The notes under the pieces: generated by a model
The model's input: only the letters and a program-made list of their open reading frames with translations
Database searches by the model: none
What the model was told of the DNA's origin: nothing
Assembly (NCBI GenBank): GCA_963816435.1
Contig: CAWFKS010000013.1
Span: 122,848-186,847, forward strand
Direction of reading: 5' to 3'
Source: an uncultured Alphaproteobacteria bacterium
GTDB lineage: Bacteria; Pseudomonadota; Alphaproteobacteria; Rhizobiales; Rhizobiaceae
DNA length: 64,000 nt
Made by a program: the position numbers and the translations under genes
In this document: positions 43,324 through 61,870 of the stretch, in pieces
Position numbering within the stretch: position 1 is the stretch's first letter
How the letters are laid out: every line of letters begins with the position of its first letter

Positions 43324-43473
43324 CGACCTCACCCGTCCCCGGACATTTGGCCGTTCTGTCCCAGACGACGGATAAGATCGACAAGCCTTCCGCTTCGGGG
43401 CGTGGTATTCTCCATATGCGCGGGCGACCTCGTGGCGAAGCGCGGTGCATCGGCTGAAGCGCCGCCGGGCAGC

Positions 43474-44708
43474 CTATTCAAGCCTTGCCGGATTGAGGCG
43501 CCCGCGCGCCCTTGCTTTGGGCGGGCGCGGGCGCCAGGAGCCGACGAAGCGCTCGTAGCTCTCTGGGCCTTTCGGGCGATGTTCATCTCCTGATGCCGCA
43601 GTTCCTTGACGTGGTAGGCATAGGTCGGACCTCGCGAGTTCCCCTTCTTCTGTGGCTTCCCGGCTTGCAGCTCCATGCTTCGCACCTTGTGAGCCACCAG
43701 GCTGGGTCGCGCCCACAGATAGTCCCTCTCCTTCGTGAGCATGTGCCAGACAAGAACGGCCAGCTTGCGCGCCACAGCGACTGCGGCACTGATGCCCACG
43801 CCGGGCTCGAACTCGAACGAAGAAGGCATGCAGTGGGCCAGGTGCTTTCGCCGACGCCCAGGCCGCTTCGACAAGCATGGCGCGGGCATGGCTGCGCCCG
43901 ACCTTGCTGATGCGCCCATGGTGGGCGGCGCCGAGGCCGGACTGACGCACCGAGGATTGAGACCGAAGTAGCTGACCAGCTTCTGCGGGGACCTGAAGCG
44001 GGCGATATCGCCTATCGCCGCCATCAGTTCGACCGCCACCGTCAGATTGACGCCGGTGATGGTCAGAAGTCGTCTGACCGCTACGTCATCGAGGCTGCTC
44101 TCGGCAATCTCCCTGTCAAGGATCGCCAGGTCTTCGGCAAGCCGATCCAGTTCGCGCACATGCCGCTCGATCGCAACACGTTCATCATTGGGGACCGGCT
44201 GGCGCATCAGCCAAGCGCGGCCGCGACCATTGAACAGATCAGCGTGCGGGCACTTCGGTATAAGATGAGCATGCAGGATCGAATGCACTTCGTTCTTGAT
44301 CCGCGTGCGATGTCGCACGACCTGGTAGCGGCGAGCAGACAGCCTGCGCATCCGCTCGGTGGCGGCATCCGGTGTCCATATCTCCGGCAGATAGCCGGCC
44401 GCATGCAGGCTTGCCAACGTGCCCGCATCGATCTTGTCGGTCTTTACATGGGCATGGGCAATCGCCTTCACCTGTAGCGGATTGGCGATCACTACCCGCT
44501 TCACGAACGGCGACAGCACCCGTGACACCGCCATGCAGTTGCCGGTCGCCTCGATCACCACCTCGTCCGTGGCTAAAAGGCTCTTGCCGAAGCCTTCCAG
44601 CGCTGTCCGGGTCATGTCGACACGGCCACCATGGCGAAGCTTGCCTTCTTCCCAGAAAACCACCTCGCCGAAGGTGCGGTGGATATCCATTCCGATAACG
44701 CGTCGCAT
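43474..44708 (-). mobile_element. IS110-family element; transposase disrupted by about three frame changes (ends undetermined)
   Basis: The N-terminal DEDD domain is intact (MRRVIGMDIHRTFGEV...IEATGNCM...KTDKIDA). The C-terminal domain alternates between two frames near 43955, 43790 and 43560 (pieces in ORFs 43329..44708 and 43474..43950). Confidence 0.8.
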
Positions 44709-45534
44709 AAGCGCCTCCTGTCCATCAGCTTGACGACGGGAGCGGCGGGCGACACGACAACTACGGATTCGCGCTCTCAGCGCAACCGGGCGAGTCGCAG
44801 AGGCGGCCAGCTACTAACACGAGCTCGCAGCTCATCGTGTGGATCGGCCTGCCCGCACCTTCGTGCTCCCGGTGCCTCTGTCCCGGATGGTCGCACCATA
44901 CGCCTCGGGCAACAAAACCGAAGCCTGACTTCGGCACCAGGAATCTTATACCGGTTACTAACTTGGTCCGATCGCCGGCGCTTGCCCTGGGACACGCGAA
45001 CCGCACCGATGTGGGAAATGGCCGCACTAGGTTTTGCAAATCTGAAAACTGCAGGCAGCAATCGGCCCGGTCCGGCGGTCGGCTTCGATCCAACTGATCG
45101 CGGCGGGAAATGATGGATGGCCTGCCCTCGGTCTGCAAGTGAATGTCGAATGGCTTGTGCAGTCTGCATCAATGTATCCGGTCTCTTGTGAGGGCTCGCC
45201 CTCGGACCACGATGGAGATTCGCGCGCCTGAGTCCTCATAATTCCTCGGCCGCTGACGGGCTTCATTTCCCTCGGGTTCCCTCAGGTTGTGAACCGGCGC
45301 GTTGGAATGGTCCCGGCGAAGCGAGCCAATACAAGAAGTTAGAGTGCCGATCGGCGTCGGACCCCACGCCGATTCACACACCATCGGGACGCCTCGTCGT
45401 GTGCGGCACCTTGCCCGCTTGACCTAGCGCAATGTGCCCGCGCGTGGGGGCCTTTTTCATCTAAGAGCATGGCAAACTTCCGGAGCAGGACGTTCATGCG
45501 GCTGGATTGCTCGCAATATGGAGAGGGACCGGGC

Positions 45535-46764
45535 ATGAATGGTGCTGGCACGAGAATCATTCGAGGTGGACTGCTTGCCGTCGGCCTGGTTGTGGTCGCG
45601 ATCGCAGGATGGCTCGGCGCCGCAGTTTCCAATTATGGCCCGGAATATGTTCGCAGGGTTCTGGTCTGGCAGGAGTCGGATCAGGGCGACTACAGCAATC
45701 ATTTTCCACAGCGGCGGCTCTCTGCTTCGCCGCAGCCCGTGCCATTCGCGCCGGCGCCCGACCAGAGTGCTCCCGAGAAGTTCGCGGCGGCGTTCGGCCT
45801 CGATGATCTTTCTGGCTTCCTTTCACGAACGCGGACCGAAGCGCTTCTCGTGATCAGGAACGACCGGCTGGTTTGGGAGAGCTATGGCGCCGGGGCGACG
45901 CGCAACTCTTTGCTCACGTCGTTCTCGGTGGCGAAGTCATTCGTCTCGATGCTCATCGGCATCGCTATTGGCGAGGGCAAGATTGCCAGCGTCGACGATC
46001 CAGTGACGAAATATCTACCTGAACTTGCCGCGCGCGACGATCGCTTCTCGGCGATCACCATCCGCGATCTGCTGACGATGTCGTCGGGGCTCGACTACGC
46101 CGAGCGACGGTGGGGCCTGTTCGGCGGCGACGATCCGCTGACCACCTACTATCCCGACCAGCGCTGGATATCACTCAACAACACGCACATTGTCAGGCCG
46201 CCGGGCGAGGTGTTCAGCTACAATAAATACCACCCACAGCTACTCGGCATGATCCTGGAGCGCACGACCGGGATGTCTGTGACGCAATACACGCAGACGA
46301 AGCTTTGGGACCCCCTCGGCATGGAGTTCGACGGATCGTGGAGCCTCGACAGCGAGAAGAGCGGCTTCGAGAAGATGGAGGCGGGGCTCAACGCCCGCGC
46401 CGTCGACTTCGCCAAGTTCGGCCGGCTCTTTCTGGATGGTGGCCGAGTAGGCGGCGTCCAGGTGGTGTCGGAGGCGTGGATGCAGGCAGCAACCGCCCGC
46501 GACCCGGCCCTGCAACGCGCAGACTACTATCCGCAGGGCTGGCCGCAGACGATCTACGCCGGCGGGCACGGCTTCTATGGGTTCTTCGTCTATGGTCGCT
46601 CGCGCAGCGGGGCGTCAGCGGATTTCTTCGCGGAAGGCGACCATGGGCAGTTCATCTACATCTCGCCGGCCAAACGGCTAGTCATCGTGCGGCTCGGGCT
46701 GGAGTTCGGCATTCCAAGTGGGCAATGGGTCGACGGCTTCTACGCATTTGCGTCGGCAATGTAG
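45535..46764 (+). CDS. Membrane-anchored serine hydrolase (beta-lactamase/esterase family)
   Basis: N-terminal TM helix, SxxK motif (SVAKS) and YxN-like region. GGAGAGGGA Shine-Dalgarno before ATG 45535. Confidence 0.8.
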   Translation: MNGAGTRIIRGGLLAVGLVVVAIAGWLGAAVSNYGPEYVRRVLVWQESDQGDYSNHFPQRRLSASPQPVPFAPAPDQSAPEKFAAAFGLDDLSGFLSRTRTEALLVIRNDRLVWESYGAGATRNSLLTSFSVAKSFVSMLIGIAIGEGKIASVDDPVTKYLPELAARDDRFSAITIRDLLTMSSGLDYAERRWGLFGGDDPLTTYYPDQRWISLNNTHIVRPPGEVFSYNKYHPQLLGMILERTTGMSVTQYTQTKLWDPLGMEFDGSWSLDSEKSGFEKMEAGLNARAVDFAKFGRLFLDGGRVGGVQVVSEAWMQAATARDPALQRADYYPQGWPQTIYAGGHGFYGFFVYGRSRSGASADFFAEGDHGQFIYISPAKRLVIVRLGLEFGIPSGQWVDGFYAFASAM

Positions 46765-47008: not shown

Positions 47009-47641
47009 TCAGATCTCGGTTCGCTCGGCCAGGAGGAGCGCGTCCTCTACATCGACGCCGAGGTAGCGCACCGTGTTCTCGATCTTGGAGTGACCAAGCA
47101 GGATCTGAATTGCGCGGATGTTTGCCGTCGCCTTGTAGATCATCGATGCCTTCGTGCGTCGGAGCGAGTGTGTTCCATACTCTTCAGGACGCAGGCCGAT
47201 CGCGGTCACCCATTCGTCGACGAGGCGTGCATACTGCCTCGTACTCATGTGGCGTGAGTGATTGACCCGGCTCGGGAACACATAGTCCTGGACCGAGCCT
47301 CCTCGTCGTTCGAGCCAAGCCAGAAGGCTGGCTCTCACGTCGCTGGTAATCTCGAACTGGACCGGCCGCCCCGTCTTTTGCTGAACCACGATCGCCCGGG
47401 TCCTGATCTCTGCCCCGGCGACCACATCGCGAATCCTGATCTTGACCAAGTCACAGCCGCGAAGCTTGCTGTCGATTGCCAGATCGAACAGTGCACGGTC
47501 CCGAACGCGTCTCTCGCGGTCGAGGAAGAAGCGAATTGCCCAGATCTGCTTCTGGGTGAACGGGCCCTTGGTGCCAACCTTCTTTCCGGCATTCCAAGCT
47601 GTGCGTTCGCGACTAGCATCATCGAGTTGAGAATGGCCCAT
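47009..47641 (-). CDS. Tyrosine-type site-specific recombinase (short, catalytic domain only)
   Basis: Catalytic residues in context: LRGCDL (Arg), HSLRRT (His-x-x-Arg), LGHSKIENTVRYL (His...Tyr). Confidence 0.85.
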   Translation of the reverse strand: MGHSQLDDASRERTAWNAGKKVGTKGPFTQKQIWAIRFFLDRERRVRDRALFDLAIDSKLRGCDLVKIRIRDVVAGAEIRTRAIVVQQKTGRPVQFEITSDVRASLLAWLERRGGSVQDYVFPSRVNHSRHMSTRQYARLVDEWVTAIGLRPEEYGTHSLRRTKASMIYKATANIRAIQILLGHSKIENTVRYLGVDVEDALLLAERTEI

Positions 47642-47899: not shown

Positions 47900-48643
47900 T
47901 CAGTCCCCCGTTCCGGCCACGCGCTCTTCGCGTTGCCCGCGCATCAGCAGCACATCGGCCCACAGCCATAGCAGGAAACAGAAGAAGGTGATCGCGGGCA
48001 GTGCCGCGTCAGTCGGTGGCGCGCCCTGGCTTGCGAGTCTCGCCACGTCGATTGCCAGCGAGGCGAGCGATGGAAGGCGGCTCACCACGACGGCCCCACG
48101 AAGCGCCGACAACAGCCAAAGCGGCGCGGTGCGGGGAAGCACTGCCGTCCCGAGCTTTCCGCCTGCCAGCAGCGTCCCGGCAACGAGGGCCAGCAAGACG
48201 TCTCCGAAGTTCGCCAGCGCCGCCGTCAGTGCCAGCGCGGCAATGGCCGACAACAGGTCACCCAGCCTTATCAGCCGCCGGTCGACATGTCCGCGCTCCG
48301 CCGATGCACGATGATAGGCTTCGCCGGAAAACATGAAGATGATGATGGCGAGCGTCAGAAAGCTCGCGCCGCTGCTGCCGAACAAATAGTTGGTGATGGC
48401 TTCGCCCAAGCCTTCGCCGCGCTGCGCCGAGAGAATCTGCACGGTCACCCCGCTCATCAGCGCAATGACGTTTCCCAAGTTGTATATGCCGCCGGGACCT
48501 GCGAGCCGTCGTGTCAGCGCGCTCCCCAAGGACCTTGCGGCCGCAATCTCTCCGGCTGCTCCCGAGAGACCGGTTGGAAAGGTCCGGACGCCTTGTGCAT
48601 TCGGCTCTCGGGTGCGTCCCAGTGGTTGAGGATGTCGTTGCAT
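47900..48643 (-). CDS. Polytopic membrane protein, unknown function
   Basis: Five to six hydrophobic helices. Strong AAGGAGA Shine-Dalgarno before ATG 48643. No family recognised. Confidence 0.7.
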   Translation of the reverse strand: MQRHPQPLGRTREPNAQGVRTFPTGLSGAAGEIAAARSLGSALTRRLAGPGGIYNLGNVIALMSGVTVQILSAQRGEGLGEAITNYLFGSSGASFLTLAIIIFMFSGEAYHRASAERGHVDRRLIRLGDLLSAIAALALTAALANFGDVLLALVAGTLLAGGKLGTAVLPRTAPLWLLSALRGAVVVSRLPSLASLAIDVARLASQGAPPTDAALPAITFFCFLLWLWADVLLMRGQREERVAGTGD

Positions 48644-48767
48644 CGAAATTCTCCTTCATGACGGCGGCCGTCGCCGCGGGCGTCCCGCGCGTTCGCGCCC
48701 TGTTTCTGATCCATTGGTTCGAAGTCGCCGCGGCGGTGCCGGTGAATGCGGCTTGGAGATGTCCCCG

Positions 48768-49736
48768 TCAGAGCCGGAAATGCGTCTCCGCGCACACGAC
48801 CACCTTCCCGTCCGAGCCACGGCGCCCGTAGGAAGTCACGATCACGCTCGGCTTCGGCGCCGTGCACCACACCGAGGAACGGCAAAGAACGTCGAGGCGG
48901 TCGCCGCTATCGAGATTGCCGAAGAAGTGCAGCCGGCGATCGACAATCGGCAGCGCAGCCACCAAGGCCGGCAGGGCGTTCGCCTCGCTTTCGACGATGA
49001 AGTCGTGGAGAACCGCAAAATAGACGAGGCCGACACCATTGAGATGAAGTGACCGCTTGATCGGGAAGGTCATGTGGGCCGGAGCCTTGTCCCCTTCCGC
49101 TGTCCATCTTGCAGAAGCGCCGAGCCTCCGAAACATGGCGGCTCGTCGCGCTTCCTTGCCCGCGCGAGCCGGCGCGAATTCCGTAGGCATGTCCGCTATC
49201 TCAAGGTCGCGGTTCGAATTCCCGTTCCTGCGCGCGAAGGCGGTGACAATCTCGACGGTCAGCAGCGCGCCATTCGTCCCGGCGAGACGCGTGCGGCTCA
49301 GCCATCCGTTCGCGGCAAACGGCGCCTGGACGAGTTCCAGCCGCACGTCGTCGTCCTCATGGAAATGCTCCGTCTGGCCGTGGATTCCGCACGCCACCAC
49401 CGAGGCCATGGCCCGCGCGCCGGTACGGTCGCGCAGCTCGCCGGGCGAGGTTCCGAGCTGGCGCGAAATCGCCCACCAGTGAAGGTGGCCGGCCTCGCGC
49501 AGGAGCCACGAGCGGCGCACCCCTTCCGTGCCGAGATGAGGCATGCCGAGCCGAAACTGCCGGGGTTCGATCGTTTCGGGTTCCGGATCGGAGCGCAGAA
49601 CGGGCGTGCAGTCGCGGATTGTCTTACTGGGCGCGTTTCGTTCCAGCGATGTGGTGGCGACGAACGCCGTTGCGGCCCGTTCGTCGTCGGTGCGTTGCGC
49701 GCTAGTTCGCCGATCGACTTCTGACATTGCTTGCAT
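48768..49736 (-). CDS. Hypothetical protein, possibly double hot-dog fold (LnmK / Pnap_2097-like)
   Basis: GAGGAG Shine-Dalgarno before ATG 49736. The N-terminal FRLGMPHLGTEGVRRSWLLREAGHLHWW resembles the start of LnmK-type proteins (from memory). Two repeat-like halves of about 140 aa each. Confidence 0.45.
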   Translation of the reverse strand: MQAMSEVDRRTSAQRTDDERAATAFVATTSLERNAPSKTIRDCTPVLRSDPEPETIEPRQFRLGMPHLGTEGVRRSWLLREAGHLHWWAISRQLGTSPGELRDRTGARAMASVVACGIHGQTEHFHEDDDVRLELVQAPFAANGWLSRTRLAGTNGALLTVEIVTAFARRNGNSNRDLEIADMPTEFAPARAGKEARRAAMFRRLGASARWTAEGDKAPAHMTFPIKRSLHLNGVGLVYFAVLHDFIVESEANALPALVAALPIVDRRLHFFGNLDSGDRLDVLCRSSVWCTAPKPSVIVTSYGRRGSDGKVVVCAETHFRL

Positions 49737-49888
49737 TGCTCGCTCCTCTCGGTTGAAGCCGGACCTTGATGGTCGGCATGGAGCGAGAATTGCGGGCTGG
49801 GCGTCAGACGAAGGTCAACGCAGCGTCAATGCGCCGCAAATTGCGCATGCAGGCAGGAAAAAAATGCGCAACAAGCGCGACGGGTCGA

Positions 49889-52027
49889 TCAGGATCTGCG
49901 CGGGAGGCCGCCGCGTCCGCTGCGCGGCGCCGGGAGGATCAGCCCCCCGAGCTGAGGCTGGCGGGCCGTATCGGCCGGCTCCAATTGCCGTGGCTGCTGC
50001 GGGTAGGCGTCGGTTCCACTGTCGACCAGAAACCGAACGAGCTGCGGGGCCGCGACACTGGTGCCGTTCATTGCCGCGACCGCGCCGCTGCGCGCGCCCG
50101 CGGCGAGCACGCCTGACAAGATTGGTGAGGTTTCGGTGACGGCCGAATGCGTCACGCGTTCACCGCCGGCGGGATCCGTCGCTTCGAGCGGCGTGGCCGA
50201 GTAGCTGGCGGGAAGCGGCGGGCCGCCCGGGTCGGCGCACGAGCGCAGGACATAGCCGCCCGCCACCAGCCGATTGGGGTCGTCTGCGGTCGCGATCGCG
50301 TTGAGGGTACCGGCGCGGCGAACGGGCGAGACGGGAGGCGAGGGATCGAAGGCGATCTTGACGCCGCGCGGGTCGGTCTCCCGGTAGGCCGCGTCGACGA
50401 ACCAGCTCTGGCGGCCGCTGTCGGGAAAGCCGGGGGGAACGTCGTCGCGCAACACCCAGGCGTGGATGGTGACGGGCCCGGTGTTTCCCCGTGGGGCGAT
50501 CGTGACACCCCAGTCGCCGGGCGGAACCGCCGCGCCACCGGTGAGGCCGGGATCGGTGGGCGCCAGGATCAGGCTCACCATCACCTCGCCACCGTCTCGA
50601 CGAACGGCAGCGCGGCCGGCGATGCGATCGATCGGCGGCGCCTGCCGGCCGGGCCATCGGTGAGGCGGCCACGTAAGGAGCTTGGCGAACTCCGTCGTGT
50701 CCGTCGTCGCCGACTGGACCAGCCGCTCGTGCAACGGTGGAATGGTCAGCACCACCGGCTCGATGTCGTCTCCCTGCGGCGTACAAAGCGTGAGCAACAC
50801 GGTTTCGATGCCGTCGGCGGGAGTGAGCCAGCATTCCAGATAATTCGACGTCGGATCGGCCGGTTGCAGGTGCCAAGTGACGTTCATGGCTTCGGCGGCG
50901 CCGGGCGACACGACGCCGGTGGCATGGCCTTTCGCATTGTTCCTGTTGCCAGCTCCGAAGACGATTTGCACTTCGCCACCACCTTCGGAGCTATGGTGGG
51001 AGACTATCGCGTCGATGCTGCGTTCCAGCTGGTGGCGGCCGAGCCTTGGCCCGCCTGAAAGACCGAAGCTGAAGTTGATGAAAACCGGAACGCGGGTGCC
51101 CAGGCTGCGCGCGCGATAAAGGATATATTCCAGCCCCTGAATGAAGAAGATGCCCAGCAAGGAGCCCGACGTCTCGCGCGCGACGATCGGCGGCAGGTTC
51201 ACGGCAATGATCGGGCGCCCCTTGGCAGCAGCGTCGTCGGGGTCCATCCCCGCCGCGAGATCGAGCACGTGGGTCCCGTGGCTGTGGGCAAGCCCGAGCG
51301 GATGCTCTCCGACCAGTTCGAAATCGAGCATCCCGAGCTTGCGCAAGACCTGGTCATCCTGTCCGTTCGTATCGGCGATGAGGCTTGCCAGCTGCGCACC
51401 GTTCCACTCGCATCCGAAGGGGAGCGGTCGACCGGGCATTCCTGGGGACCGGAAAGCGGGGCGCCAGTTGCCGCCCTGGTCCCATGCAAACGCCAACCGC
51501 GTGCCATGAGGCCCCTGTCGGAAGCGCTCGTGGGCGACGTTGATGGCATGATCAATTATGCCGACGATCGCATCCGGCCTGCCGGCCGGTGCCGCGGCAG
51601 GGGAGGGATCCTCGAAACGGGGGATGAACAGTGCGGGATTCACCGAGCGGCGGTGCAGCGGCAGGAGAAAAAGCCTGGGGTCTGCCATATGCAGCTTGCG
51701 CTCGAGAAGTTGAACGAACTGATCCGACAAGGAAGTGCCGTCCTCGGTCATCACTGGCACGATTGTTGTGATACTCGGCACGCCGGAACGGGCGTTCAGA
51801 TCGGCCATGTCGATCCCGGCCAGAAATAGGAAATCGCCGGGCTGCTCGCGCTGGCCGACCAGATACCTGCTCGATCTCAGCCCGGGCCCGCTGATCCACA
51901 GGCTCACTGGGTCCATGAAGCGGCTGTCGAACCGCAGCAATTGAGGAACCCGGTCGCTCGTGGTCGAAAGATCGACAAACTCGCTGTCGAAGATGCCGGG
52001 CCAATCCTCGCTCCAGGCCAGAGCCAT
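49889..52027 (-). CDS. Subtilisin-like serine protease (peptidase S8), no signal peptide, N-terminal extension and very large internal insertion
   Basis: Catalytic motifs: Asp in VGIIDHAI, His in HSHGTHV, oxyanion Asn in GAGNRNN, Ser in NGTSVAAP. ATG 52027 lies 2 nt after the upstream stop and is preceded by a G-rich Shine-Dalgarno. Alternative start at 52045. Confidence 0.85.
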   Translation of the reverse strand: MALAWSEDWPGIFDSEFVDLSTTSDRVPQLLRFDSRFMDPVSLWISGPGLRSSRYLVGQREQPGDFLFLAGIDMADLNARSGVPSITTIVPVMTEDGTSLSDQFVQLLERKLHMADPRLFLLPLHRRSVNPALFIPRFEDPSPAAAPAGRPDAIVGIIDHAINVAHERFRQGPHGTRLAFAWDQGGNWRPAFRSPGMPGRPLPFGCEWNGAQLASLIADTNGQDDQVLRKLGMLDFELVGEHPLGLAHSHGTHVLDLAAGMDPDDAAAKGRPIIAVNLPPIVARETSGSLLGIFFIQGLEYILYRARSLGTRVPVFINFSFGLSGGPRLGRHQLERSIDAIVSHHSSEGGGEVQIVFGAGNRNNAKGHATGVVSPGAAEAMNVTWHLQPADPTSNYLECWLTPADGIETVLLTLCTPQGDDIEPVVLTIPPLHERLVQSATTDTTEFAKLLTWPPHRWPGRQAPPIDRIAGRAAVRRDGGEVMVSLILAPTDPGLTGGAAVPPGDWGVTIAPRGNTGPVTIHAWVLRDDVPPGFPDSGRQSWFVDAAYRETDPRGVKIAFDPSPPVSPVRRAGTLNAIATADDPNRLVAGGYVLRSCADPGGPPLPASYSATPLEATDPAGGERVTHSAVTETSPILSGVLAAGARSGAVAAMNGTSVAAPQLVRFLVDSGTDAYPQQPRQLEPADTARQPQLGGLILPAPRSGRGGLPRRS

Positions 52028-52029
52028 GC

Positions 52030-53238
52030 TCAATCGCCCCCCCATTCGGCGCGTGCCCTAGCCCAGAGCCAGGCCACGGCCTCGGAGGTTTCGACCTGGG
52101 CGGTCGCCTCGCCGTAGGCGATGATCTCAATTCCGTGACCTGCGCCGTGGTGGGCGTGGTCCGCGTGATCTTCCCCGTCATCGTCGCGTGCGTCGCGAGT
52201 GGCGAATCCCTGTCGTTCGCCGTTCGCCCAGACGCGAGCGGCATAGAAGTCGCTGGCGCCGATACCCGGTCCATGGAAATGGCGGAGGCCGACTTCGGCG
52301 CTCTCGCCGGCGCGTGCGAGAACGATGTCGGCACACAGGAATCCCAACATGGAGCCGCAGAAGCTGTCGGCGGGGAAATGAAGTCCGGCCACGGTCCGAT
52401 TCACGGCGATGCGTGCAGCCATGGCCATGAAAAGGTCGTCAAGCCCAGCGGCCTTGGCGCTCTCGGGGATCAGGCACCTCAGCAATTCGGCCGTGGCGAA
52501 GGCTTCAGTCGCGTGGCCGGAAGGCAGCGAGCCATGCCCCGGCGTCGCGATCAGCGGCTCGATCTGGGCGGACAAGACGTGCGGGCGCAGACAGGCGAGC
52601 GAGTGCTTGCATTGCTGCGCGACATGCGCGGCAACATGCTGGACCAGTGACATCAGTTCCAGCGTATGCTCCATGCGCTCGGGCACCATCGGCAGTAGCG
52701 ACGCGAAATAGGCCGACGTGCCGGTGATTTGGTCGACGATCTCCTGTGCTCGGTCCGGCCGGAGATCGGCGTAGTCGTTGACCACCCGGGCCTGGGCCAG
52801 GAAATCGTCAATCGTCGGGCGGACCAGTGTCGCCACTGGCTGGTAGGTCGCCGTCGGCACGGACTCGCCCGCCGTGACCAGGAGCAGGTTTATGGCCAGC
52901 TCGATTTCGCCTTCGGCGTGCCCGGCCGGCCGCTGCACGTAGCCGATGCGGGAAAGTATCTCGTTGAGCAGGACCAATTGTCGCCATTGCCGGTCCCACA
53001 GCGCCAGGTTTGTCGTTTCGCCCGCAGCGTACGGAGCCGGTGCATGTGGCGGCCGCCACGTTCCCACGATCCCGTCACGTGCAGTCGCAAGGCCGAGCGG
53101 GGACGCCACGCTGCCGAAGCCGAGCATCGCAGCGGCGACCTGAGCGGGCTGCGGGCCCGCCTGGATGCCTTGGATGCCTTGAATTCCCTGTATGCCTTGG
53201 ATCCCCTGTATGCCCTGAGCCAGCGTGTTCAACGGCAT
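52030..53238 (-). CDS. PAP2-superfamily / vanadium-haloperoxidase-like protein with N-terminal (GIQ)6 repeat and His/Asp-rich C-terminal patch
   Basis: Complete motif set: K-x6-RP (KHSLACLRP), PSGH (LPSGHATE) and R-x5-H-x3-D (NRTVAGLHFPAD). GGGGAGA Shine-Dalgarno before ATG 53238. No TM helices or signal peptide are evident. Confidence 0.7.
   Translation of the reverse strand: MPLNTLAQGIQGIQGIQGIQGIQGIQAGPQPAQVAAAMLGFGSVASPLGLATARDGIVGTWRPPHAPAPYAAGETTNLALWDRQWRQLVLLNEILSRIGYVQRPAGHAEGEIELAINLLLVTAGESVPTATYQPVATLVRPTIDDFLAQARVVNDYADLRPDRAQEIVDQITGTSAYFASLLPMVPERMEHTLELMSLVQHVAAHVAQQCKHSLACLRPHVLSAQIEPLIATPGHGSLPSGHATEAFATAELLRCLIPESAKAAGLDDLFMAMAARIAVNRTVAGLHFPADSFCGSMLGFLCADIVLARAGESAEVGLRHFHGPGIGASDFYAARVWANGERQGFATRDARDDDGEDHADHAHHGAGHGIEIIAYGEATAQVETSEAVAWLWARARAEWGGD
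53161..53214 (-). repeat. Six tandem 9-nt units encoding Gly-Ile-Gln
   Basis: On the coding strand the units read GGC ATA CAG / GGG ATC CAA / GGC ATA CAG / GGA ATT CAA / GGC ATC CAA / GGC ATC CAG. The peptide repeat is perfect but the DNA units differ at synonymous sites. Confidence 0.95.
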
Positions 53239-53255
53239 TGCAGTGTCTCCCCGGG

Positions 53256-54911
53256 TTAGTGCAGCGGAATACCCGCGGCCTCGAAGACGCGTCCCCACTC
53301 CTGGCCGACCCTGGTCTTGCCGGCGGGATGACGCGTGAGATACCCCTCCACCGTGAACGCCGGATCCAGCGTGAGCAACTCCCGGGCGACGGCCTTGGCC
53401 GCAGCGGGCTGCCCCATCAGTTGCAGCCCTGCCAGTTTGGCCCGCATGGCCGAGACATGGCGCGGGCTGGTGAGCAGGGATGCCTCGGCGAGTTCGATCG
53501 CCTTGGCGTAGTCGCCTGCCACCAGGTATGCGGTCGCACTTAGTCCTTCGAAGAAGTGGACCCGGGGGTCACAGGGCGACAGCAGTTTCGCCCGCTCCGA
53601 CAGCGCAACCGCTGTCCTGCCCTCGCCCAGGAAACTGTGCAGCAGCGCCTTGAACTGGCAGGCGATGGCGCTCGAGTTGTTGACGGCCAGCGAGGCTTCG
53701 AAACTCTTGCGCGCGGCATCAAAGTCTCCCTGCAGCACCGTCTTCACGTTGCCGTCCATGGCGAGGGAAAAGGCGCACTGCGGGTTGAGGTCGAGCGCCC
53801 GCTGCACCGCATCGACGGCGAGCGCGTTTTCTTGCGCCGGATTCTCGCTCCAGCCCTGGAAGACCTTGAGAAGGTGCCACTGGGCCGACCATGCGCGCGG
53901 AATCGAATGCCGCGGTGCACGCCGAATTACCTCGTCCACCTGCTCCTTCGCGCGCGCGAAATTCGCCGTGGACATCTGGTACATCAGGCCGATCGCGGAC
54001 ATCATCAAGCCATGTGTCGTAACGCTCGGCAACGGCCGAATTGCGCCGAGCTCTATGGAGTTCACGAGTACCGCACCCACGACCTCGGCGGCGATCTCAT
54101 GCACCAGTGCGGCGTCTCCGTGCAGGAAGTCCGCGGCGTTGGCGACAAATCGGTCGCCCCACACAAGGGTCCCGGCATAGGTGTCGTGGAAGTCGATGTC
54201 GACCGCGAGCCGGCCGCCAGCTTCGAGCACGCGCCCAGTGACGATGTAGTCGGCGCCGAGTGCCGTCTTCAGTTGAGCCAGTTCCACGACGGTGGGGTCG
54301 AGCGTCCGACTGGACAGATGCGATATCATGTCGATGAGTTGCGACCTTGCCAGCGCCCGTATTAATTCCTGTGCGACGGCGTCGCCGAGCTGTGCGGCTT
54401 CGGGCTGGGCGCTCAGAAGGGGCAGCACTGCGATGCGGGGACGCAAAGATTCTGACACCACGCCGGACACCATTCGGCCCGCAGCGGCCTGCCGCGATGT
54501 GCGCAACCAGTCCTCGAATCCTTCCTCGCCGAGGTCCATCCCTTCCAGGAAATCTCCCCGCGAGGGGTCCTCGTGGATAACTACGCCGCCGGCGCGAAAC
54601 CCGATACGGTCCTGCTGCACATCGAATACAAGGTCGAAGCGCCCGCCGAGGGAGTTTCTCATCGCGGAAAGCGCCTGGCGCAGGCTCGCGCGACCGAGAT
54701 GATCATCGACATTGCCCCACAACGTCGCGACCAGCCAGGCGCGCGTCCGGACCATGTCCGGGGACGAAGCCAGCAGTGCAAGCAGCGCACGCTGCTTCTG
54801 CCCGGCGAGACGCAATTCCTCACCGTCGACCCAGCGGACCATGAATGGACCGAAGAGCTGGATCTCCAGCTTTGGCTCCAATGGAGCTTGCATGCCTCGT
54901 CCTTTTGGCAT
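53256..54911 (-). CDS. SARP-like winged-helix transcriptional activator with central and C-terminal TPR region
   Basis: N-terminus LEIQLFGPFMVRWVDGEELRLAGQKQRALLALLASSPDMVRTRAWLVATLWG matches SARP/OmpR-type wHTH proteins. The C-terminal approximately 200 aa are TPR-like. Alternative start at 54893. Confidence 0.75.
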   Translation of the reverse strand: MPKGRGMQAPLEPKLEIQLFGPFMVRWVDGEELRLAGQKQRALLALLASSPDMVRTRAWLVATLWGNVDDHLGRASLRQALSAMRNSLGGRFDLVFDVQQDRIGFRAGGVVIHEDPSRGDFLEGMDLGEEGFEDWLRTSRQAAAGRMVSGVVSESLRPRIAVLPLLSAQPEAAQLGDAVAQELIRALARSQLIDMISHLSSRTLDPTVVELAQLKTALGADYIVTGRVLEAGGRLAVDIDFHDTYAGTLVWGDRFVANAADFLHGDAALVHEIAAEVVGAVLVNSIELGAIRPLPSVTTHGLMMSAIGLMYQMSTANFARAKEQVDEVIRRAPRHSIPRAWSAQWHLLKVFQGWSENPAQENALAVDAVQRALDLNPQCAFSLAMDGNVKTVLQGDFDAARKSFEASLAVNNSSAIACQFKALLHSFLGEGRTAVALSERAKLLSPCDPRVHFFEGLSATAYLVAGDYAKAIELAEASLLTSPRHVSAMRAKLAGLQLMGQPAAAKAVARELLTLDPAFTVEGYLTRHPAGKTRVGQEWGRVFEAAGIPLH

Positions 54912-56044
54912 TCTGAAAGAATATCCCTCGGAAAGACTGAGTCAACGAAGCTGCGGCAGCAGCATTCGGCGCAGTCGCTTTGGAATTCAAAATACCGACG
55001 AATTCGGGGCCGCAAACTTGCACTTCCGTCAGTGGCGTTTCTGAATTTGGCCCGTGCTGGCACTTTCATTTCCCGCGGGAAACCAGCTCCCGGGACTGCG
55101 CTGCGCACGTGAACGGGCGAAACCGGGCACGATCAGCGACACGATCGAGCGCGCGTCCGCCTTGCCCTGCCGAGCCACATCGTGATCGAACGTATTGTGC
55201 AAGCGCCTCCGACATCCGCATTGAGCCTGATGAGGCGTCGGACGCGAACAATACCCGACCGTCGGGCTCATAGGATAGCGTCGGGGCCAGCTCGCTCCGA
55301 AGCTCATGTCCTCCCCGGCCGTGCATTCTGCATGGAACAAGGTCGGAAAACGTATCTTGTGCCGCGTGGTGCGGCGGTGCAGCTGTGGCCCTCCACTGGC
55401 GATCGAACTGGTGGCCCCGAGCAGCAGAAGAAGCCTCGGGCCGCGACGATCGAAAGCTCTCCGGAGCGGATTCGTACCCGAGCCTTGCTTCCACATCCGC
55501 CCGGCCACGCTCGTAATGATGCTGGTTCTCGATCTTCCGGAGCCAGCTTTCTGCGTCCACGTTCTGCCGGACGAAGTGGTTGAGGAGTGCCTGGAAATCG
55601 GGCTCGACCATTGTCGGATCGCAGCCGACCGGTCGTGCGCGACGGACCACGCTCTTCAGCAACGTTACGTACCGGCGGGCAACGAGGCGTTCCGCGGGAA
55701 TCGGCCACGCATCTACCATGTACTGGCGCACCTGCTGGCGCACCTGTACGGCATTCTTCTGAACTGGCCGACATAATAACGGTGTCGTTCATGCGGCCTT
55801 TCCAGGTCATGCACCCCACTAGGCGACGGCGGGTCTGACGATCGTCGGCGGTTCCTAGCCAGGCTCTGTAGAGCTTGCGCGCGCGACCACGAGCAAGCCT
55901 GGCCTGCACGCACTAGCTGCCTTCGCGTCGCATGAGATAGGAAGGCCGGACCACGACATCTCCGCGCAAAATCATGCGAGATGTCACACAGTTGGCTGAC
56001 CCCTGTTTCAGCCTGAGTGCTTGATTTTGCTTGTTCCGGAGCAG

Positions 56045-58647: not shown

Positions 58648-59505
58648 CTATAAGTTAGCCCTGTTCACGTTGTGGTCCGATCTGGACCGGGTTGCAAATT
58701 CGTTCGGGGTGAGCCCGTCGAGGCTCGTGTGCGGTCGATTCACATTGTAGTCGATCCTCCATTCTTCGATGCTGTTGCGAGCGTGCTGATAGCTGGTGAA
58801 GAGCCGTTCGTTGAGGCACTCGTCGCGCAGCCGACCATTGAAGCTTTCCACGAAGCCGTTCTGCATCGGCTTGCCCGGTGCGATGTAGTGCCATTCGACC
58901 TGCCGATCCTCCTGCCACGCCAGGATCGCATTCGAGGTCAGCTCGGTGCCGTTGTCCGACACGATCATGCAGGGGTAGCCGCGATGCTCGGCGATGATGT
59001 CGAGTTCGCGGGCGACACGTTCGCCCGAGATCGAGTTGTCGACGACCGTGGCCAGGCATTCCCGGCTGAAGTCGTCGATGACGCACAGGATCCGGAAGCG
59101 GCGGCCGTCGGTCAGCGTGTCCGAGACGAAGTCGAGGCTCCAGCGCTGGTTGGCATCCTGCGGGATAGCCATCGGTGCCCTCGTGCCAAGCGCCCGCTTG
59201 CGGCCGCCACGTTTGCGCACTGTCAGGCGCTCTTCCCGATAAAGCCTGTAGAGCTTCTTCCAGTTCAACGCCACGCCTTCGCGTCTCAGGAGCAGGTGCA
59301 GCCGGCGATAGCCGAAGCGTCGGCGCTCGGCTGCCAGTTCCCGTAGCCGCTTTCGCAGGTCAGCGTCGTCCGGTCGCCTCGAACGATAGCGGTAGACCCG
59401 CGGCTCCATGCCGACGAGCCGGCAAGCACGACGTTGCGTATAACCCTTGTTCTCGATCGCCCAGGTCACGGCGGTTCTCCTCGACCCAGGCGTCAGAAGT
59501 TTTTT
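58648..59505 (-). CDS. IS3-family transposase OrfB (expressed as OrfAB by -1 frameshift)
   Basis: DDE/rve core WSLDFVSD...[11 protein letters not shown]...[20 protein letters not shown]. The -1 frame is open across the slippery site. Confidence 0.9.
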
Positions 59506-59759
59506 CCGAGCATCTCGCGCAAGGTCGAGACGTCGAGCATGGCGTCGGCCAGTAGGCGCTTCAGCTTGCCGTTCTCCTCCTCGAGGCTCTTCAGCCGCTT
59601 CGCCTCCGACAGCTCCATGCCGCCATACTTCGAGCGCCACTTGTAAAACGTCGCGTCGCTCACACCGTATTTGCGGCAGAGCTCCGTCGCCGATAGCCCC
59701 GCCTGGTGCTCCTTCAAAATGCCGATGATCTGTTCGTCGGAAAACCTGCTGCGCTTCAT
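59493..59759 (-). CDS. IS3-family transposase OrfA
   Basis: [47 protein letters not shown]. It ends at ..GGA AAA AAC.., a canonical in-phase A AAA AAC slippery heptamer at 59499-59505. Confidence 0.9.
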
Positions 59760-59824
59760 TGCCTGTCTCCTCATCCGGATGACAGGCTAACCTCAAAGCG
59801 AGGACATTTCAGGGGAGCAGGTCA

Positions 59825-61165: not shown

Positions 61166-61870
61166 GAAGACGCGGCAACGCCCTCGAAAAGTGGGAGATC
61201 GCGCTCATCAAGGCTATGGTCTCGCGTGGAGACTGGCCGAATGACCAAGACATCCTTGTACTTCACTAGACCGACACGCTCAGTAAACCATCGGGCGATC
61301 GCCGAGATAAGGAAAAATGAGAAGCACGCAGCCATCAAGGCAGCCGCCGACGATGCGTTAAGCGAATTCTTGGCAACGTGGCCCGATGTGGACCCTCAAA
61401 CAGGTTTGAGCATACGAGGCGACGAACTTCTCATTAAGGCGCGCGAAGCAATGATCGCCGCCGTTCACATATTCAACGGCGCGGGCCTAACCTTTCGCGC
61501 GGAGTTGTTCATCGTGACCAGCGTGATCGGATGGACCTACCTTTTGCACGCTTGGTTCCGGCGCGAGGGCATCGATTATCGCTATAAGAACGCAGACGGC
61601 ACGTTCAAGAAGACCAAGCAAGGTGAAGATTGCTACTGGGAGCTGGGAAAATGTCTTCGGCACAATCGCTGCCCCCTGTCGCCAGGCGCCGTCAAAAATC
61701 TAGAGTTCCTCCTGGAGCTTCGACACGAGATCGAACATCGGTCCACCAGCCGGATTGACGATGCTGTCAGCGCGAAATTGCAGGCCTGTTGCATCAATTT
61801 CAATGACGCGATCAAAGCTCTGCGGGCCTATCCACCAAACGCAGGTGCCTTCCCCGGACGCCTAAATTAA
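61156..61870 (+). pseudogene. DUF3644-like protein, frameshifted near 61258 and probably 3-prime truncated
   Basis: Frame 1 reads ..GNALEKWEIALIKAMVSRGDWPNDQDILV. Frame 2 reads YFTRPTRSVNHRAIAEIRKNEKH...AVHIFNGAGLTFRAELFIVTSVIGWTYLLHAWFRREGIDYRY. The family is assigned from memory. Confidence 0.4.

What the first reader, a model, noticed from the sequence alone, without database searches (positions are those of the whole stretch)
47900..54911. Intact orphan module: SARP/TPR regulator, PAP2/haloperoxidase-like protein, atypical cytoplasmic S8 subtilase, double-hotdog-like protein and membrane protein
Five same-strand genes remain fully intact in a region where most neighbours are IS-disrupted or frameshifted.

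- The first three genes are tightly packed. The regulator stop lies 18 nt before the PAP2-like ATG, and the PAP2-like stop lies 2 nt before the S8 ATG. This implies co-translation of a phosphatase/haloperoxidase-fold enzyme with a non-secreted subtilase.
- I know of no described pathway, defence system or biosynthetic cluster with this combination.
- SARP activators are classically cluster-situated regulators of secondary metabolism in actinomycetes. Vanadium-haloperoxidase-like enzymes and LnmK-type double-hotdog enzymes are natural-product tailoring enzymes. A cryptic small-molecule or lipid-modification cluster is therefore one hypothesis.
- The alternative is a conflict/defence or signalling module that uses a regulated intracellular protease. 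Supporting context: a recombinase (47009..47641), IS elements, a tRNA remnant and a toxin-antitoxin pair.
- The GC content looks native, so the module is probably old and maintained by selection.
Basis: partly seen in the sequence, partly recalled or inferred. Interest (0 to 1): 0.8.

Follow-up and report, generated by a model that had tools for sequence, protein, structure and literature searches.

The report
Repeat-tailed phosphatase, protease, TPR sensor cassette
Three of the five genes form a widespread, undescribed bacterial cassette in which a phosphatase carries a tail of repeated three-residue units that changes together with the end of the neighbouring sensor protein, as a matched lock and key would.

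Summary
The five minus-strand ORFs are real and intact, but only three form a conserved unit:
- a signal transducer (winged-helix + TolB_N-like + TPR, 53256-54911);
- a soluble PAP2 phosphatase (52030-53238);
- a cytoplasmic subtilase with the fold of clostridial Csp proteases (49889-52027).

This trio recurs in about 80 loci of Alpha-, Beta- and Gammaproteobacteria and on plasmids, with unrelated flanks. The LnmK-like hotdog gene accompanies it only in the closest clade. The membrane protein never does.

**New findings:**
- Every PAP2 gene with an intact 5' end starts with a tandem tripeptide repeat. There are 40 different units, 4-16 copies each; here it is (GIQ)x6.
- The units are kept identical at protein level while differing at synonymous sites (954 synonymous differences against 26 variant units).
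- The first gene's output domain is swappable: winged helix in about 44 loci, class III cyclase in about 24.
- In two lineages, near-identical cassettes with different repeat units diverge sharply only across the C-terminal TPRs of gene 1 plus the repeat tail of gene 2.

**Best reading (inferred):** the TPR end binds the repeat tail as a specificity pair, and the Csp-like protease processes the phosphatase N-terminus.

It matches no defence system, NCBIfam model or paper. The physiological role is unknown.

The parts
53256..54911 (-). Gene 1: signal transducer, 551 aa (a start at M7, 54893, is also possible). Built of winged helix, TolB_N-like domain and TPRs.
   Evidence: ORF; Pfam and PDB matches. 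It is 44% identical over its full length to the first gene of the Sedimentitalea cassette. A homologue lies next to PAP2/S8 in 71 loci.
54645..54869 (-). OmpR/AfsR-type winged-helix DNA-binding domain (residues 15-89). This is the swappable output domain.
   Evidence: Trans_reg_C E = 0.0023. AfsR and EmbR E about 0.01. A class III cyclase domain replaces it in about 24 loci.
54168..54440 (-). TolB_N-like domain (residues 158-248, includes the 'RIAVLP' motif).
   Evidence: PF04052 E = 6e-4. It is conserved in both the wHTH and cyclase versions.
53259..53822 (-). C-terminal TPR region and tail (residues 364-551). It corresponds to the hypervariable specificity block seen in related cassettes.
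   Evidence: TPR Pfam hits and consensus-TPR PDB matches. In related cassettes the last 100-150 codons have dN 0.18-0.43 when repeat units differ and 0-0.018 when they are the same.
53239..53255 (-). 17-nt spacer with a GGAG Shine-Dalgarno for the PAP2 gene.
52030..53238 (-). Gene 2: soluble PAP2-family phosphatase, 402 aa, with an N-terminal repeat tail.
   Evidence: PF01569 E = 3e-14. AlphaFold model pLDDT 84; its core matches class A acid phosphatases. It is 47% identical to the Sedimentitalea partner.
53161..53217 (-). Tandem tripeptide repeat Q(GIQ)x6, residues 8-26 of the PAP2 protein.
   Evidence: The six units differ only at synonymous sites. Equivalent arrays occur in every related PAP2 gene that has its 5' end on the contig.
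53056..53079 (-). Conserved motif RDGIVGTW after the repeat and linker. It is a candidate conserved processing or recognition site (inferred).
   Evidence: R54 and G59 are at least 90% conserved. The motif is seen in almost all loci.
52366..52608 (-). PAP2 catalytic motifs: KHSLACLRP, PSGH and NRTVAGLHFPAD.
   Evidence: K211, P239, S240, H242, R281, H287 and D291 are invariant in 37 homologues.
49889..52027 (-). Gene 3: cytoplasmic S8 subtilase of Csp type, 712 aa. It has a putative N-terminal prodomain, a catalytic core and an inserted beta-rich domain. Catalytic residues are D159 (within 51539-51559), H250 (within 51263-51286), N361 and S657 (within 50045-50068).
   Evidence: AlphaFold model pLDDT 82, pTM 0.89. 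Foldseek best hits are CspB, CspA and CspC at E 6e-21 to 1e-16, against 1e-6 for other subtilases.
48768..49736 (-). Accessory gene: LnmK-family double-hotdog protein, 322 aa.
   Evidence: TIGR04098 at 113 bits, above the cut-off of 100. LnmK structures E about 0.007. It lies next to the cassette in only 7 related loci, in varying orientation.
47900..48643 (-). Neighbouring membrane protein, 247 aa. It is not part of the conserved cassette.
   Evidence: At least 4 hydrophobic segments. It is a real family with 31 homologues but is absent from all 80 cassette loci. Elsewhere it sits next to distant wHTH-TolB_N-TPR paralogues.

Best explanation
The core is a self-contained three-gene signalling cassette that moves horizontally.

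**The three genes**
- Gene 1 is a one-component-type transducer. Its output domain is either a winged-helix DNA binder (as here) or a class III nucleotide cyclase. A TolB_N-like domain and C-terminal TPRs follow.
- Gene 2 is an active, soluble, cytoplasmic PAP2 phosphatase. Its N-terminus is a disordered tail of 4-16 identical tripeptides.
- Gene 3 is an active cytoplasmic subtilase of the clostridial Csp (zymogen-activating convertase) type.

**Proposed mechanism**
- The C-terminal TPRs of gene 1 bind the tripeptide-repeat tail of gene 2, repeat protein against repeat peptide. This cognate pair sets the specificity of each cassette.
- The Csp-like protease cuts the phosphatase N-terminus at a conserved site downstream of the repeats, near ALIxxRDGIVGxW. 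By analogy with CspB cutting pro-SleC, the cut would free or destroy the tail and switch the phosphatase.
- The cut would thereby change the state of the transducer and so transcription or cNMP synthesis.

**Shown**
- The cassette is conserved.
- The output domain is swappable.
- The catalytic residues of both enzymes are intact.
- The repeat is translated and under strong protein-level selection.
- The repeat unit co-varies with the TPR end, and the two are exchanged together as one block.

**Inferred**
- Direct TPR-tail binding.
- Cleavage of gene 2 by gene 3.
- The direction of the switch.

**Unknown**
- The input signal and the phosphatase substrate.
For: **Cassette conservation**
- The three genes lie in the same order in nearly all of 80 loci. 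Only these three families recur, and flanks are unrelated.
- Copies sit on Phaeobacter, Roseibium and Rhizobium plasmids.
- The S8 family has 3,582 50%-identity clusters at E <= 1e-30.

**Output domain swap**
- The TolB_N + TPR part is homologous throughout, while the N-terminal domain is wHTH (about 44 loci), a Guanylate_cyc domain (about 24 loci) or wHTH + BTAD (L028).

**Repeat tail**
- It is present in every PAP2 gene with an intact 5' end.
- There are 70 arrays, 662 units and 40 distinct units, always with a period of 3 residues.
- 954 synonymous differences stand against 26 variant units.
- In the window a Shine-Dalgarno precedes the ATG upstream of the repeat, and the six GIQ units differ only synonymously.
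- The tail is disordered in the model (pLDDT below 50 for residues 1-30).

**Co-variation**
- Partial Mantel test on 63 cassettes, controlling for PAP2 core distance: repeat-unit distance against the gene-1 C-terminal 400 aa gives r = 0.14, p = 0.011; against S8 it gives r = 0.02, p = 0.34.
- Kiloniella cassettes are 80-90% identical in DNA. They fall to 44-69% exactly across the last 500 nt or so of gene 1, the spacer and the repeat plus linker when units differ (SGV against SGM or TGL).
- The same-unit Kiloniella pair is 88-93% identical in that same stretch.
- Burkholderiales L061 (SGV) and L073 (SGI) are 92-99% identical except for 51-78% in the same block.
- In that block dN reaches 0.18-0.43, against 0-0.02 for same-unit pairs. 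In L061/L073 dS also jumps from about 0.1 to 0.9-1.7, which indicates exchange of the whole block.

**Protease**
- The Csp fold is specific and the catalytic residues are invariant.
- The protease does not co-vary with the repeat unit, which fits cutting at a conserved site rather than inside units.

**Engineered precedent**
- Designed helical-repeat proteins bind 4-6 tandem tripeptide repeats with high affinity and specificity (PMC10115654).
Against:
- The gene-1 3' end and the gene-2 5' end are physically adjacent. A single recombination tract would hit both even without a functional link. The same block in two lineages and several alleles argues against chance but does not exclude a recombination hotspot at the repeat DNA.
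- In Bradyrhizobium-type cassettes the regulator is divergently oriented and only about 25% identical, and no clear block was seen.
- The repeat units contain no proline, unlike the designed polyproline-II binders.
- The Mantel correlation is modest, and one regulator (L018) was mis-picked in that test.
- Nothing shows that the S8 substrate is the PAP2 protein.
- The role of the phosphatase chemistry is unexplained.
Confidence: 0.4

Rival explanations
1. Peptide-product (RiPP-like or signal-peptide) system. The repeated tripeptides are multiple core units carried on the PAP2 protein as a scaffold. The S8 protease releases them as many copies of one short peptide, perhaps acylated by the LnmK-like enzyme where it is present. 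The TPR protein senses the released product.
For: - Identical units are repeated 4-16 times under protein-level selection. Multi-core precursors cut by S8 proteases exist, for example cyanobactin PatA/PatG, and PatG appears among weak fold hits.
- TPR receptors that bind short peptides encoded next door are known (the RRNPP family; from my own knowledge).
- In the closest clade every unit ends in Gln (SLQ, AAQ, STQ, ATQ, AVQ, NLQ, GIQ), as a shared P1 residue would.
- The hotdog acyltransferase accessory occurs in that same clade.
Against: - S8 does not co-vary with the unit (r = 0.02), although 40 chemically very different units would need different specificity pockets.
- No residue is common to all units that a PAP2 enzyme could modify.
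- No exporter or peptide transporter recurs in the flanks.
- There is no signal peptide.
Confidence: 0.2
2. The repeat is only a flexible spacer or an unstable sequence. On this view the divergent block at the gene-1/gene-2 junction is a by-product of recombination or mutation promoted by repeat DNA, not a specificity interface. The three genes would still be a regulatory or enzymatic operon, but without TPR-tail pairing.
For: - The block is centred on the repeat DNA.
- dS as well as dN is raised in L061/L073, so recombination occurred.
- Copy number varies between close relatives (one search list).
Against: - 954 synonymous changes against 26 variant units show long-term selection for identical units, which a mere spacer would not need.
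- The period is always 3 residues in 70 arrays.
- The block extends 300-500 nt into the TPR region but only to the end of the linker on the PAP2 side.
- Same-unit pairs are most conserved exactly there.
- dN rises more than tenfold while the middle of gene 1 has dN near 0.
Confidence: 0.15
3. Anti-phage or abortive-infection defence. The TPR protein senses infection and the protease activates a cytoplasmic non-specific phosphatase, which depletes nucleotides or other phosphorylated metabolites.
For: - The cassette is compact and self-contained with unrelated flanks. It is carried on plasmids and, in the window, on an island with IS elements and a recombinase.
- It has a hypervariable recognition part.
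- Protease-activated effectors are a known defence theme, for example bacterial gasdermins (one search list).
- Class A acid phosphatases, the closest structural matches of the PAP2 core, are broad-spectrum (from my own knowledge).
Against: - No PADLOC model matches any of the five proteins.
- The output domains of gene 1 (DNA-binding or cyclase) are typical of signalling rather than effector activation.
- No known defence genes recur in the flanks.
- No phage record was examined.
Confidence: 0.1
4. One reading: a five-gene cryptic secondary-metabolite or lipid-modification cluster. It would have a SARP activator, a vanadium haloperoxidase-like enzyme and an LnmK-type tailoring enzyme.
For: - The LnmK-family match is above its cut-off.
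- Some homologues carry the VCPO_2nd Pfam domain.
- L028 has a true wHTH + BTAD first gene.
Against: - Only three genes are conserved.
- There is no BTAD in the window protein.
- Haloperoxidases are far weaker fold matches than acid phosphatases.
- No ACP, PKS, NRPS or other biosynthetic genes recur.
- The hotdog is absent from about 90% of cassettes, and the membrane protein from all.
Confidence: 0.03

Closest known systems
Clostridial Csp proteases and pro-SleC (germination zymogen activation)
   Same: The S8 protein has the Csp fold: a subtilase core with a large inserted beta domain and an N-terminal prodomain-like region. Foldseek E is 6e-21 to 1e-16 for CspB, CspA and CspC, against 1e-6 for other subtilases. 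It is non-secreted. Csp's known role is to remove an N-terminal propeptide from a partner enzyme, which is the role proposed here.
   Different: - Sequence identity is only 13-16%.
- The host is a proteobacterium that does not sporulate.
- The partner is a PAP2 phosphatase, not a cortex hydrolase.
- The gene sits in a fixed cassette with a TPR transducer.
- Cleavage has not been shown.
RRNPP peptide-TPR receptor pairs of Firmicutes (Rap-Phr, PlcR-PapR, NprR-NprX)
   Same: A TPR protein with a regulatory output is encoded directly next to the gene that carries its putative peptide ligand. S8 proteases process Phr peptides (from my own knowledge).
   Different: - The peptide is a tandem tripeptide array fused to an enzyme, not a small secreted propeptide.
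- There is no signal peptide or importer.
- The output is an OmpR-type wHTH or a cyclase, not an Xre-HTH or Rap domain.
- The hosts are Proteobacteria.
agr and comQXP pherotype blocks
   Same: A hypervariable DNA block spans the adjoining ends of neighbouring genes that encode interacting partners, while the rest of the locus is conserved. The block is exchanged as a unit.
   Different: The components are unrelated. There is no evidence for an extracellular signal or for social discrimination.
Designed repeat proteins that bind tripeptide-repeat peptides (superhelical matching, PMC10115654)
   Same: A helical-repeat protein is paired with 4-6 or more tandem tripeptide units. Specificity is set by the unit sequence.
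   Different: - Those proteins are engineered and their targets are proline-containing.
- The natural units here contain no proline.
- Binding here is only inferred.
Class A non-specific acid phosphatases (PhoC, PhoN, P. aeruginosa 7F17)
   Same: They are the best structural and sequence matches of the PAP2 core. All catalytic motif residues are present.
   Different: - Those enzymes are periplasmic proteins of about 220 aa.
- This one has no signal peptide, is 402 aa and has an extra beta domain with no structural match.
- It also carries the repeat tail.

Membership tests
SARP (Streptomyces antibiotic regulatory protein) | OmpR-type winged-helix DNA-binding domain at the N-terminus | tested here: inconclusive
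   Trans_reg_C E = 0.0023 at 18.4 bits, below the 26.2 cut-off. AfsR and EmbR structures match at E about 0.01 over residues 9-91.
SARP (Streptomyces antibiotic regulatory protein) | BTAD (bacterial transcriptional activation domain, PF03704) after the winged helix | tested here: not met
   No PF03704 match even at E <= 10. A TolB_N-like domain occupies that position. The relative in L028 does have a BTAD.
PAP2 superfamily (acid phosphatase / haloperoxidase fold) | Three motifs: KxxxxxxRP, PSGH and SRxxxxxHxxxD | tested here: met
   KHSLACLRP, PSGH and NRTVAGLHFPAD (S replaced by N). The residues are invariant in 37 homologues. PF01569 E = 3e-14.
Vanadium-dependent haloperoxidase | Two-bundle VHPO architecture, closest structural similarity to VHPOs, and vanadate-dependent halogenation | tested here: not met
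   VHPO structures (4usz, 9l8x, NapH3) match only at E 0.01-0.3 with TM 0.25-0.32. Acid phosphatases match at E 2e-6. Activity is not testable here.
Peptidase S8 (subtilase) | Catalytic triad in the order Asp-His-Ser plus an oxyanion Asn, on a subtilisin fold | tested here: met
   D159 (IIDHAIN), H250 (HGTHV), N361 (AGN) and S657 (GTSVAAP) are invariant. Subtilase fold hits. The Pfam score of 20.7 is just under the 21.8 cut-off.
Csp-type subtilase | Large beta-rich (jellyroll) domain inserted in the catalytic domain | tested here: met
   About 290 residues, mostly beta strands, lie between N361 and S657. Alignments of 530-700 columns to CspB, CspA and CspC give TM up to 0.67 on the target.
Csp-type subtilase | Prodomain autoprocessed but retained; activates a partner zymogen | not testable with these tools
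   An N-terminal region of about 150 residues with alpha/beta elements is present, but processing cannot be judged from sequence.
LnmK family bifunctional acyltransferase/decarboxylase | Double-hotdog protein scoring above the NCBIfam TIGR04098 cut-off | tested here: met
   113.2 bits against a cut-off of 100. LnmK structures match at E about 0.007 over residues 180-317. The activity and the ACP partner were not tested, and no ACP gene lies nearby.
RRNPP quorum-sensing receptors | TPR receptor plus an adjacent small secreted propeptide that is re-imported | tested here: not met
   The candidate peptide is fused to a 402-aa enzyme, has no signal peptide, and no transporter recurs in the flanks.
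Known anti-phage defence systems (PADLOC-DB v2) | A match of any component to a defence-system model | tested here: not met
   No family at E <= 0.01 for any of the five proteins.

The most novel reading that the evidence does not exclude
Nature uses a modular code in which a TPR superhelix reads a tandem tripeptide repeat. On this reading, the TPR end and the repeat tail form exchangeable specificity alleles of an intracellular signalling cassette. A Csp-like protease gates the cassette, which drives either transcription or cyclic-nucleotide synthesis in thousands of Proteobacteria. This would be a new class of bacterial signal-transduction module and a natural counterpart of designed repeat-peptide binders.
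Probability: 0.35. Interest if true: 0.9.

Novelty: categorically new. Interest (0 to 1): 0.85.

Why it matters
- **Scale.** The protease family is large (3,582 clusters at 50% identity), and in about 80 sampled loci it sits in this cassette, on chromosomes and on plasmids of well-studied genera (Phaeobacter, Rhizobium, Bradyrhizobium). It has no assigned function.
- **New handle.** The tripeptide-repeat tail and its co-variation with the TPR end give a concrete, testable entry point.
  - If the pairing is real, it is a natural, evolvable repeat-protein/repeat-peptide recognition code. Dozens of orthogonal pairs would be ready for synthetic biology.
  - It would also define a new way of wiring proteolysis and phosphatase activity to transcription or cNMP signalling.
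- **Csp proteases.** It would extend Csp-type proteases, so far a clostridial germination speciality, to Proteobacteria.
- **Annotation.** Public gene calls often start the PAP2 gene downstream of the repeat, which hides the feature.

Tried and rejected
- **Defence system.** PADLOC scan of all five proteins found nothing.
- **Specific named families.** NCBIfam gave only distant generic hits for REG, PAP2 and S8.
- **Five-gene module.** tblastn and phmmer of the membrane protein against 80 loci found nothing. Its own homologues sit in unrelated contexts.
- **Conserved extra genes in the flanks.** All-against-all clustering of 4,716 ORFs found only generic families (ABC ATPase, SDR, LysR) and antisense shadow ORFs. 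RTX proteins appear in some Roseobacter loci.
- **Beta-lactamase-like neighbour as part of the module.** The window and Sedimentitalea copies are not orthologous.
- **Repeat as untranslated 9-nt DNA repeat or regulator binding site.** Rejected because of the Shine-Dalgarno and ATG upstream, the strictly synonymous variation, and its presence in cyclase-type cassettes too.
- **Collagen-like triple helix.** 16 of 70 units lack glycine and no unit contains proline.
- **Unit-specific cutting by S8.** No co-variation with the unit.
- **Source organism.** The exact S8 protein is on record from one 188,649-bp NCBI/ENA contig, but no locus could be retrieved. Plasmid megablast matched only the recombinase gene. 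The genome scan gave no match above 43% identity (best segment).
- **Literature.** Seven searches found no paper on this gene combination.
- **Bradyrhizobium-type cassettes.** No clear hypervariable block was seen.

Full report
**1. The observation**

The five minus-strand ORFs are present and uninterrupted:
- REG, 53256-54911;
- PAP2-like, 52030-53238;
- S8, 49889-52027;
- hotdog, 48768-49736;
- membrane protein, 47900-48643.

The REG stop and the PAP2 ATG are 17 nt apart, with a GGAG 8 nt before the ATG. The PAP2 stop and the S8 ATG are 2 nt apart. The last two genes follow after gaps of 152 and 124 nt.

Pfam and NCBIfam confirm PAP2 (E = 3e-14) and a weak S8 match. They also give an LnmK-family double hotdog above its cut-off (113 against 100 bits). 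The membrane protein has no family.

REG is not a SARP. It has a weak OmpR/AfsR-type winged helix, a TolB_N-like domain and TPRs, but no BTAD even at E <= 10.

S8, PAP2 and hotdog have no hydrophobic segment. The membrane protein has at least four.

The surroundings hold IS110 and IS3-type transposase genes and a short tyrosine recombinase gene. No tRNA was found.

**2. What is conserved**

The S8 protein has about 190 scored homologues at 29-44% identity, mostly unnamed. A profile search of 1.84 billion cluster representatives finds 3,582 at E <= 1e-30.

In Sedimentitalea nanhaiensis the S8 gene is preceded by a 368-aa and a 551-aa gene. These are 47% and 44% identical to the window's PAP2 and REG.

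A scan of one genome per species returned 80 loci. tblastn shows REG-PAP2-S8 in the same order in nearly all of them.

All-against-all clustering of 4,716 ORFs shows that only these three families recur, in 80, 77 and 71 loci. Everything else is antisense shadows or generic families in variable positions.
- The hotdog lies next to the cassette in only 7 other loci of the closest clades, in varying orientation.
- The membrane protein is in none. It is a real family, found elsewhere beside distant paralogues of REG.

The cassette occurs in these groups:
- Rhodobacterales;
- Kiloniella, Pelagibius and other Rhodospirillales;
- Bradyrhizobium, Rhizobium and other Hyphomicrobiales;
- Burkholderiales;
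- a Granulosicoccaceae MAG;
- plasmids of Phaeobacter, Roseibium, Rhizobium and Paracoccus.

The adjacency is strongly conserved.

**3. The parts**

*S8.* D159, H250, N361 and S657 are invariant. The AlphaFold model (pLDDT 82, pTM 0.89) matches clostridial CspB, CspA and CspC at E 6e-21 to 1e-16. All other subtilases start at 1e-6. It is thus a Csp-type subtilase with a large beta-rich insertion and an N-terminal prodomain-like region.

*PAP2.* All catalytic residues are invariant. The model (pLDDT 84) matches class A acid phosphatases (E 2e-6 to 1e-3) over about 170 residues. Vanadium haloperoxidases are much weaker matches. An added beta domain has no match.

*Gene 1.* The C-terminal 400 residues or so (TolB_N-like + TPR) are homologous in all loci, but the N-terminal output domain varies. 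It is a winged helix in about 44 loci, 11-12 of them divergently oriented. It is a class III nucleotide cyclase in about 24, and wHTH + BTAD in one. The Roseibium plasmid copy is annotated as a cyclase. A sensor module kept constant while the output is swapped marks gene 1 as a signal transducer. It also points to the TolB_N/TPR part as the portion tied to PAP2-S8.

**4. The unexpected feature**

Every PAP2 gene whose 5' end is on its contig begins with M-x-x-(L). A tandem tripeptide repeat follows, then a linker of 10-25 residues, then the conserved ALIxxRDGIVGxW motif.
- Across 70 arrays there are 662 units of 40 different kinds, in 4-16 copies (median 9), always with a period of 3 residues.
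- 54 of the 70 arrays have a glycine-containing unit, and no unit contains proline.
- The window has (GIQ)x6 at 53161-53217.
- Its closest clade has SLQ, AAQ, STQ, ATQ, AVQ and NLQ, so all end in Gln.
- Others include GAH, GAS, GVT, EGF, SGE, GGL, GAF, GSH, GRS and GNY. Phaeobacter plasmids carry NSF.

The arrays are nearly perfect at protein level. Only 26 units carry one changed residue, yet the perfect units hold 954 synonymous nucleotide differences from the array consensus. In the window the six GIQ units use ggc/ggg/gga, ata/atc/att and cag/caa.

This shows that the repeat is translated and that identical units are kept by selection. Public gene calls often start downstream and hide the repeat.

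**5. Co-variation**

In 63 cassettes, repeat-unit distance correlates with divergence of the gene-1 C-terminal 400 residues after controlling for PAP2 core divergence (partial r = 0.14, permutation p = 0.011). It does not correlate with S8 divergence (r = 0.02, p = 0.34).

Close relatives are more telling.
- *Kiloniella.* Cassettes are 80-90% identical in DNA. Pairs with different units (SGV against SGM or TGL) fall to 44-69% exactly over the last 500 nt or so of gene 1, the spacer and the repeat plus linker. The same-unit pair is 88-93% identical in that stretch.
- *Burkholderiales.* L061 (SGV) and L073 (SGI) are 92-99% identical everywhere except that block, where identity is 51-78%.
- *Substitution rates.* In the last 100-150 codons of gene 1, dN is 0.18-0.43 for different-unit pairs and 0-0.02 for the same-unit pair. 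The middle of the gene has dN near 0.
- *Recombination.* In L061/L073 dS also jumps from about 0.1 to 0.9-1.7, so the block was exchanged by recombination with a divergent allele.

A variable block that spans the abutting ends of two genes, inside an otherwise conserved locus, is the pattern known from agr and comQXP specificity groups (from my own knowledge).

No clear block was seen in Bradyrhizobium-type cassettes, where the regulator is divergent.

**6. Mechanism**

The best-supported reading is that the C-terminal TPRs of gene 1 and the tripeptide-repeat tail of gene 2 are a cognate binding pair. TPRs are peptide-binding modules. Designed helical-repeat proteins bind 4-6 tandem tripeptides specifically (PMC10115654).

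The protease does not track the unit and has the fold of a zymogen-activating convertase. It most likely cuts once at a conserved site after the repeat. That cut would separate the tail from the enzyme and switch both the phosphatase and the transducer.

These steps are inferred. Neither binding nor cleavage was tested, and the input signal and phosphatase substrate are unknown. Overall confidence is 0.4.

The rivals are:
- a peptide-product system (0.2);
- a repeat-driven recombination artefact with no pairing (0.15);
- a defence system (0.1);

**7. Novelty**

No PADLOC model, no specific NCBIfam model and no paper in seven searches covers this combination.

The proteins belong to known superfamilies. 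The cassette, the repeat tail and the exchangeable TPR/repeat block match no system I could find.

I rate it categorically new, with the caveat that the function is inferred. Interest is 0.85.

Noticed in passing
window 47900-48643; L087 5350-7750; L088 7001-11826: The membrane protein family is not linked to the cassette. In other genomes it sits next to distant (21-24% identical) paralogues of the wHTH-TolB_N-TPR regulator. In Roseobacter sinensis that neighbourhood also holds a VCPO_2nd + RTX protein and a beta-lactamase + RTX protein.
   Followed up: partly
L004 5025-6638; also L005, L007, L009, L011, L019, L020: RTX calcium-binding repeat proteins (PF00353, E = 2e-90) lie beside the cassette in several Rhodobacterales loci. 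This may be shared synteny or a functional link; it is undecided.
   Followed up: partly
window 52135-52210 region (PAP2 residues about 345-367): The window's PAP2 protein has an Asp/His-rich disordered insertion (DARDDDGEDHADHAHHGAGHG, pLDDT below 50). The Sedimentitalea homologue lacks it.
   Followed up: no
window 47009-47641: This short (210 aa) tyrosine recombinase gene is 84-85% identical in DNA to genes on Sinorhizobium and Ancylobacter plasmids. It is the only part of 47-56 kb with a near match in the plasmid collection.
   Followed up: partly
window 43329-44708 and 58648-59796: An IS110-family transposase ORF whose Transposase_20 match stops halfway, which suggests a frameshift, and an IS3-type integrase-core ORF flank the region. 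GC drops to 0.55-0.56 at 56-58 kb.
   Followed up: no
window 45469-46764: A beta-lactamase-family (PF00144) protein of 431 aa is encoded on the plus strand. A similar family member lies near the Sedimentitalea cassette, but the two are not orthologous.
   Followed up: yes
window 54918-54945 (minus strand): A sigma-70-like promoter match (TTGACT, 16 nt, TATTCT) lies just upstream of the REG start. It is one of only two such matches in 9 kb, which is about the chance expectation.
   Followed up: no
L040 9780-10030 and equivalents: A second, weaker variable stretch lies in the N-terminal (prodomain-like) part of the S8 gene in Kiloniella. It varies in all pairs regardless of repeat unit.
   Followed up: partly
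public protein records P0124, P0131, P0148, P0166, P0171 and others: Many database gene calls for the PAP2 partner start at or just before the RDGIVG motif, omitting the repeat that is visible in the DNA of related loci.
   Followed up: partly
window 61226-61870: A DUF3644 protein (PF12358, E = 4e-47) is encoded in the low-GC stretch downstream.
   Followed up: no
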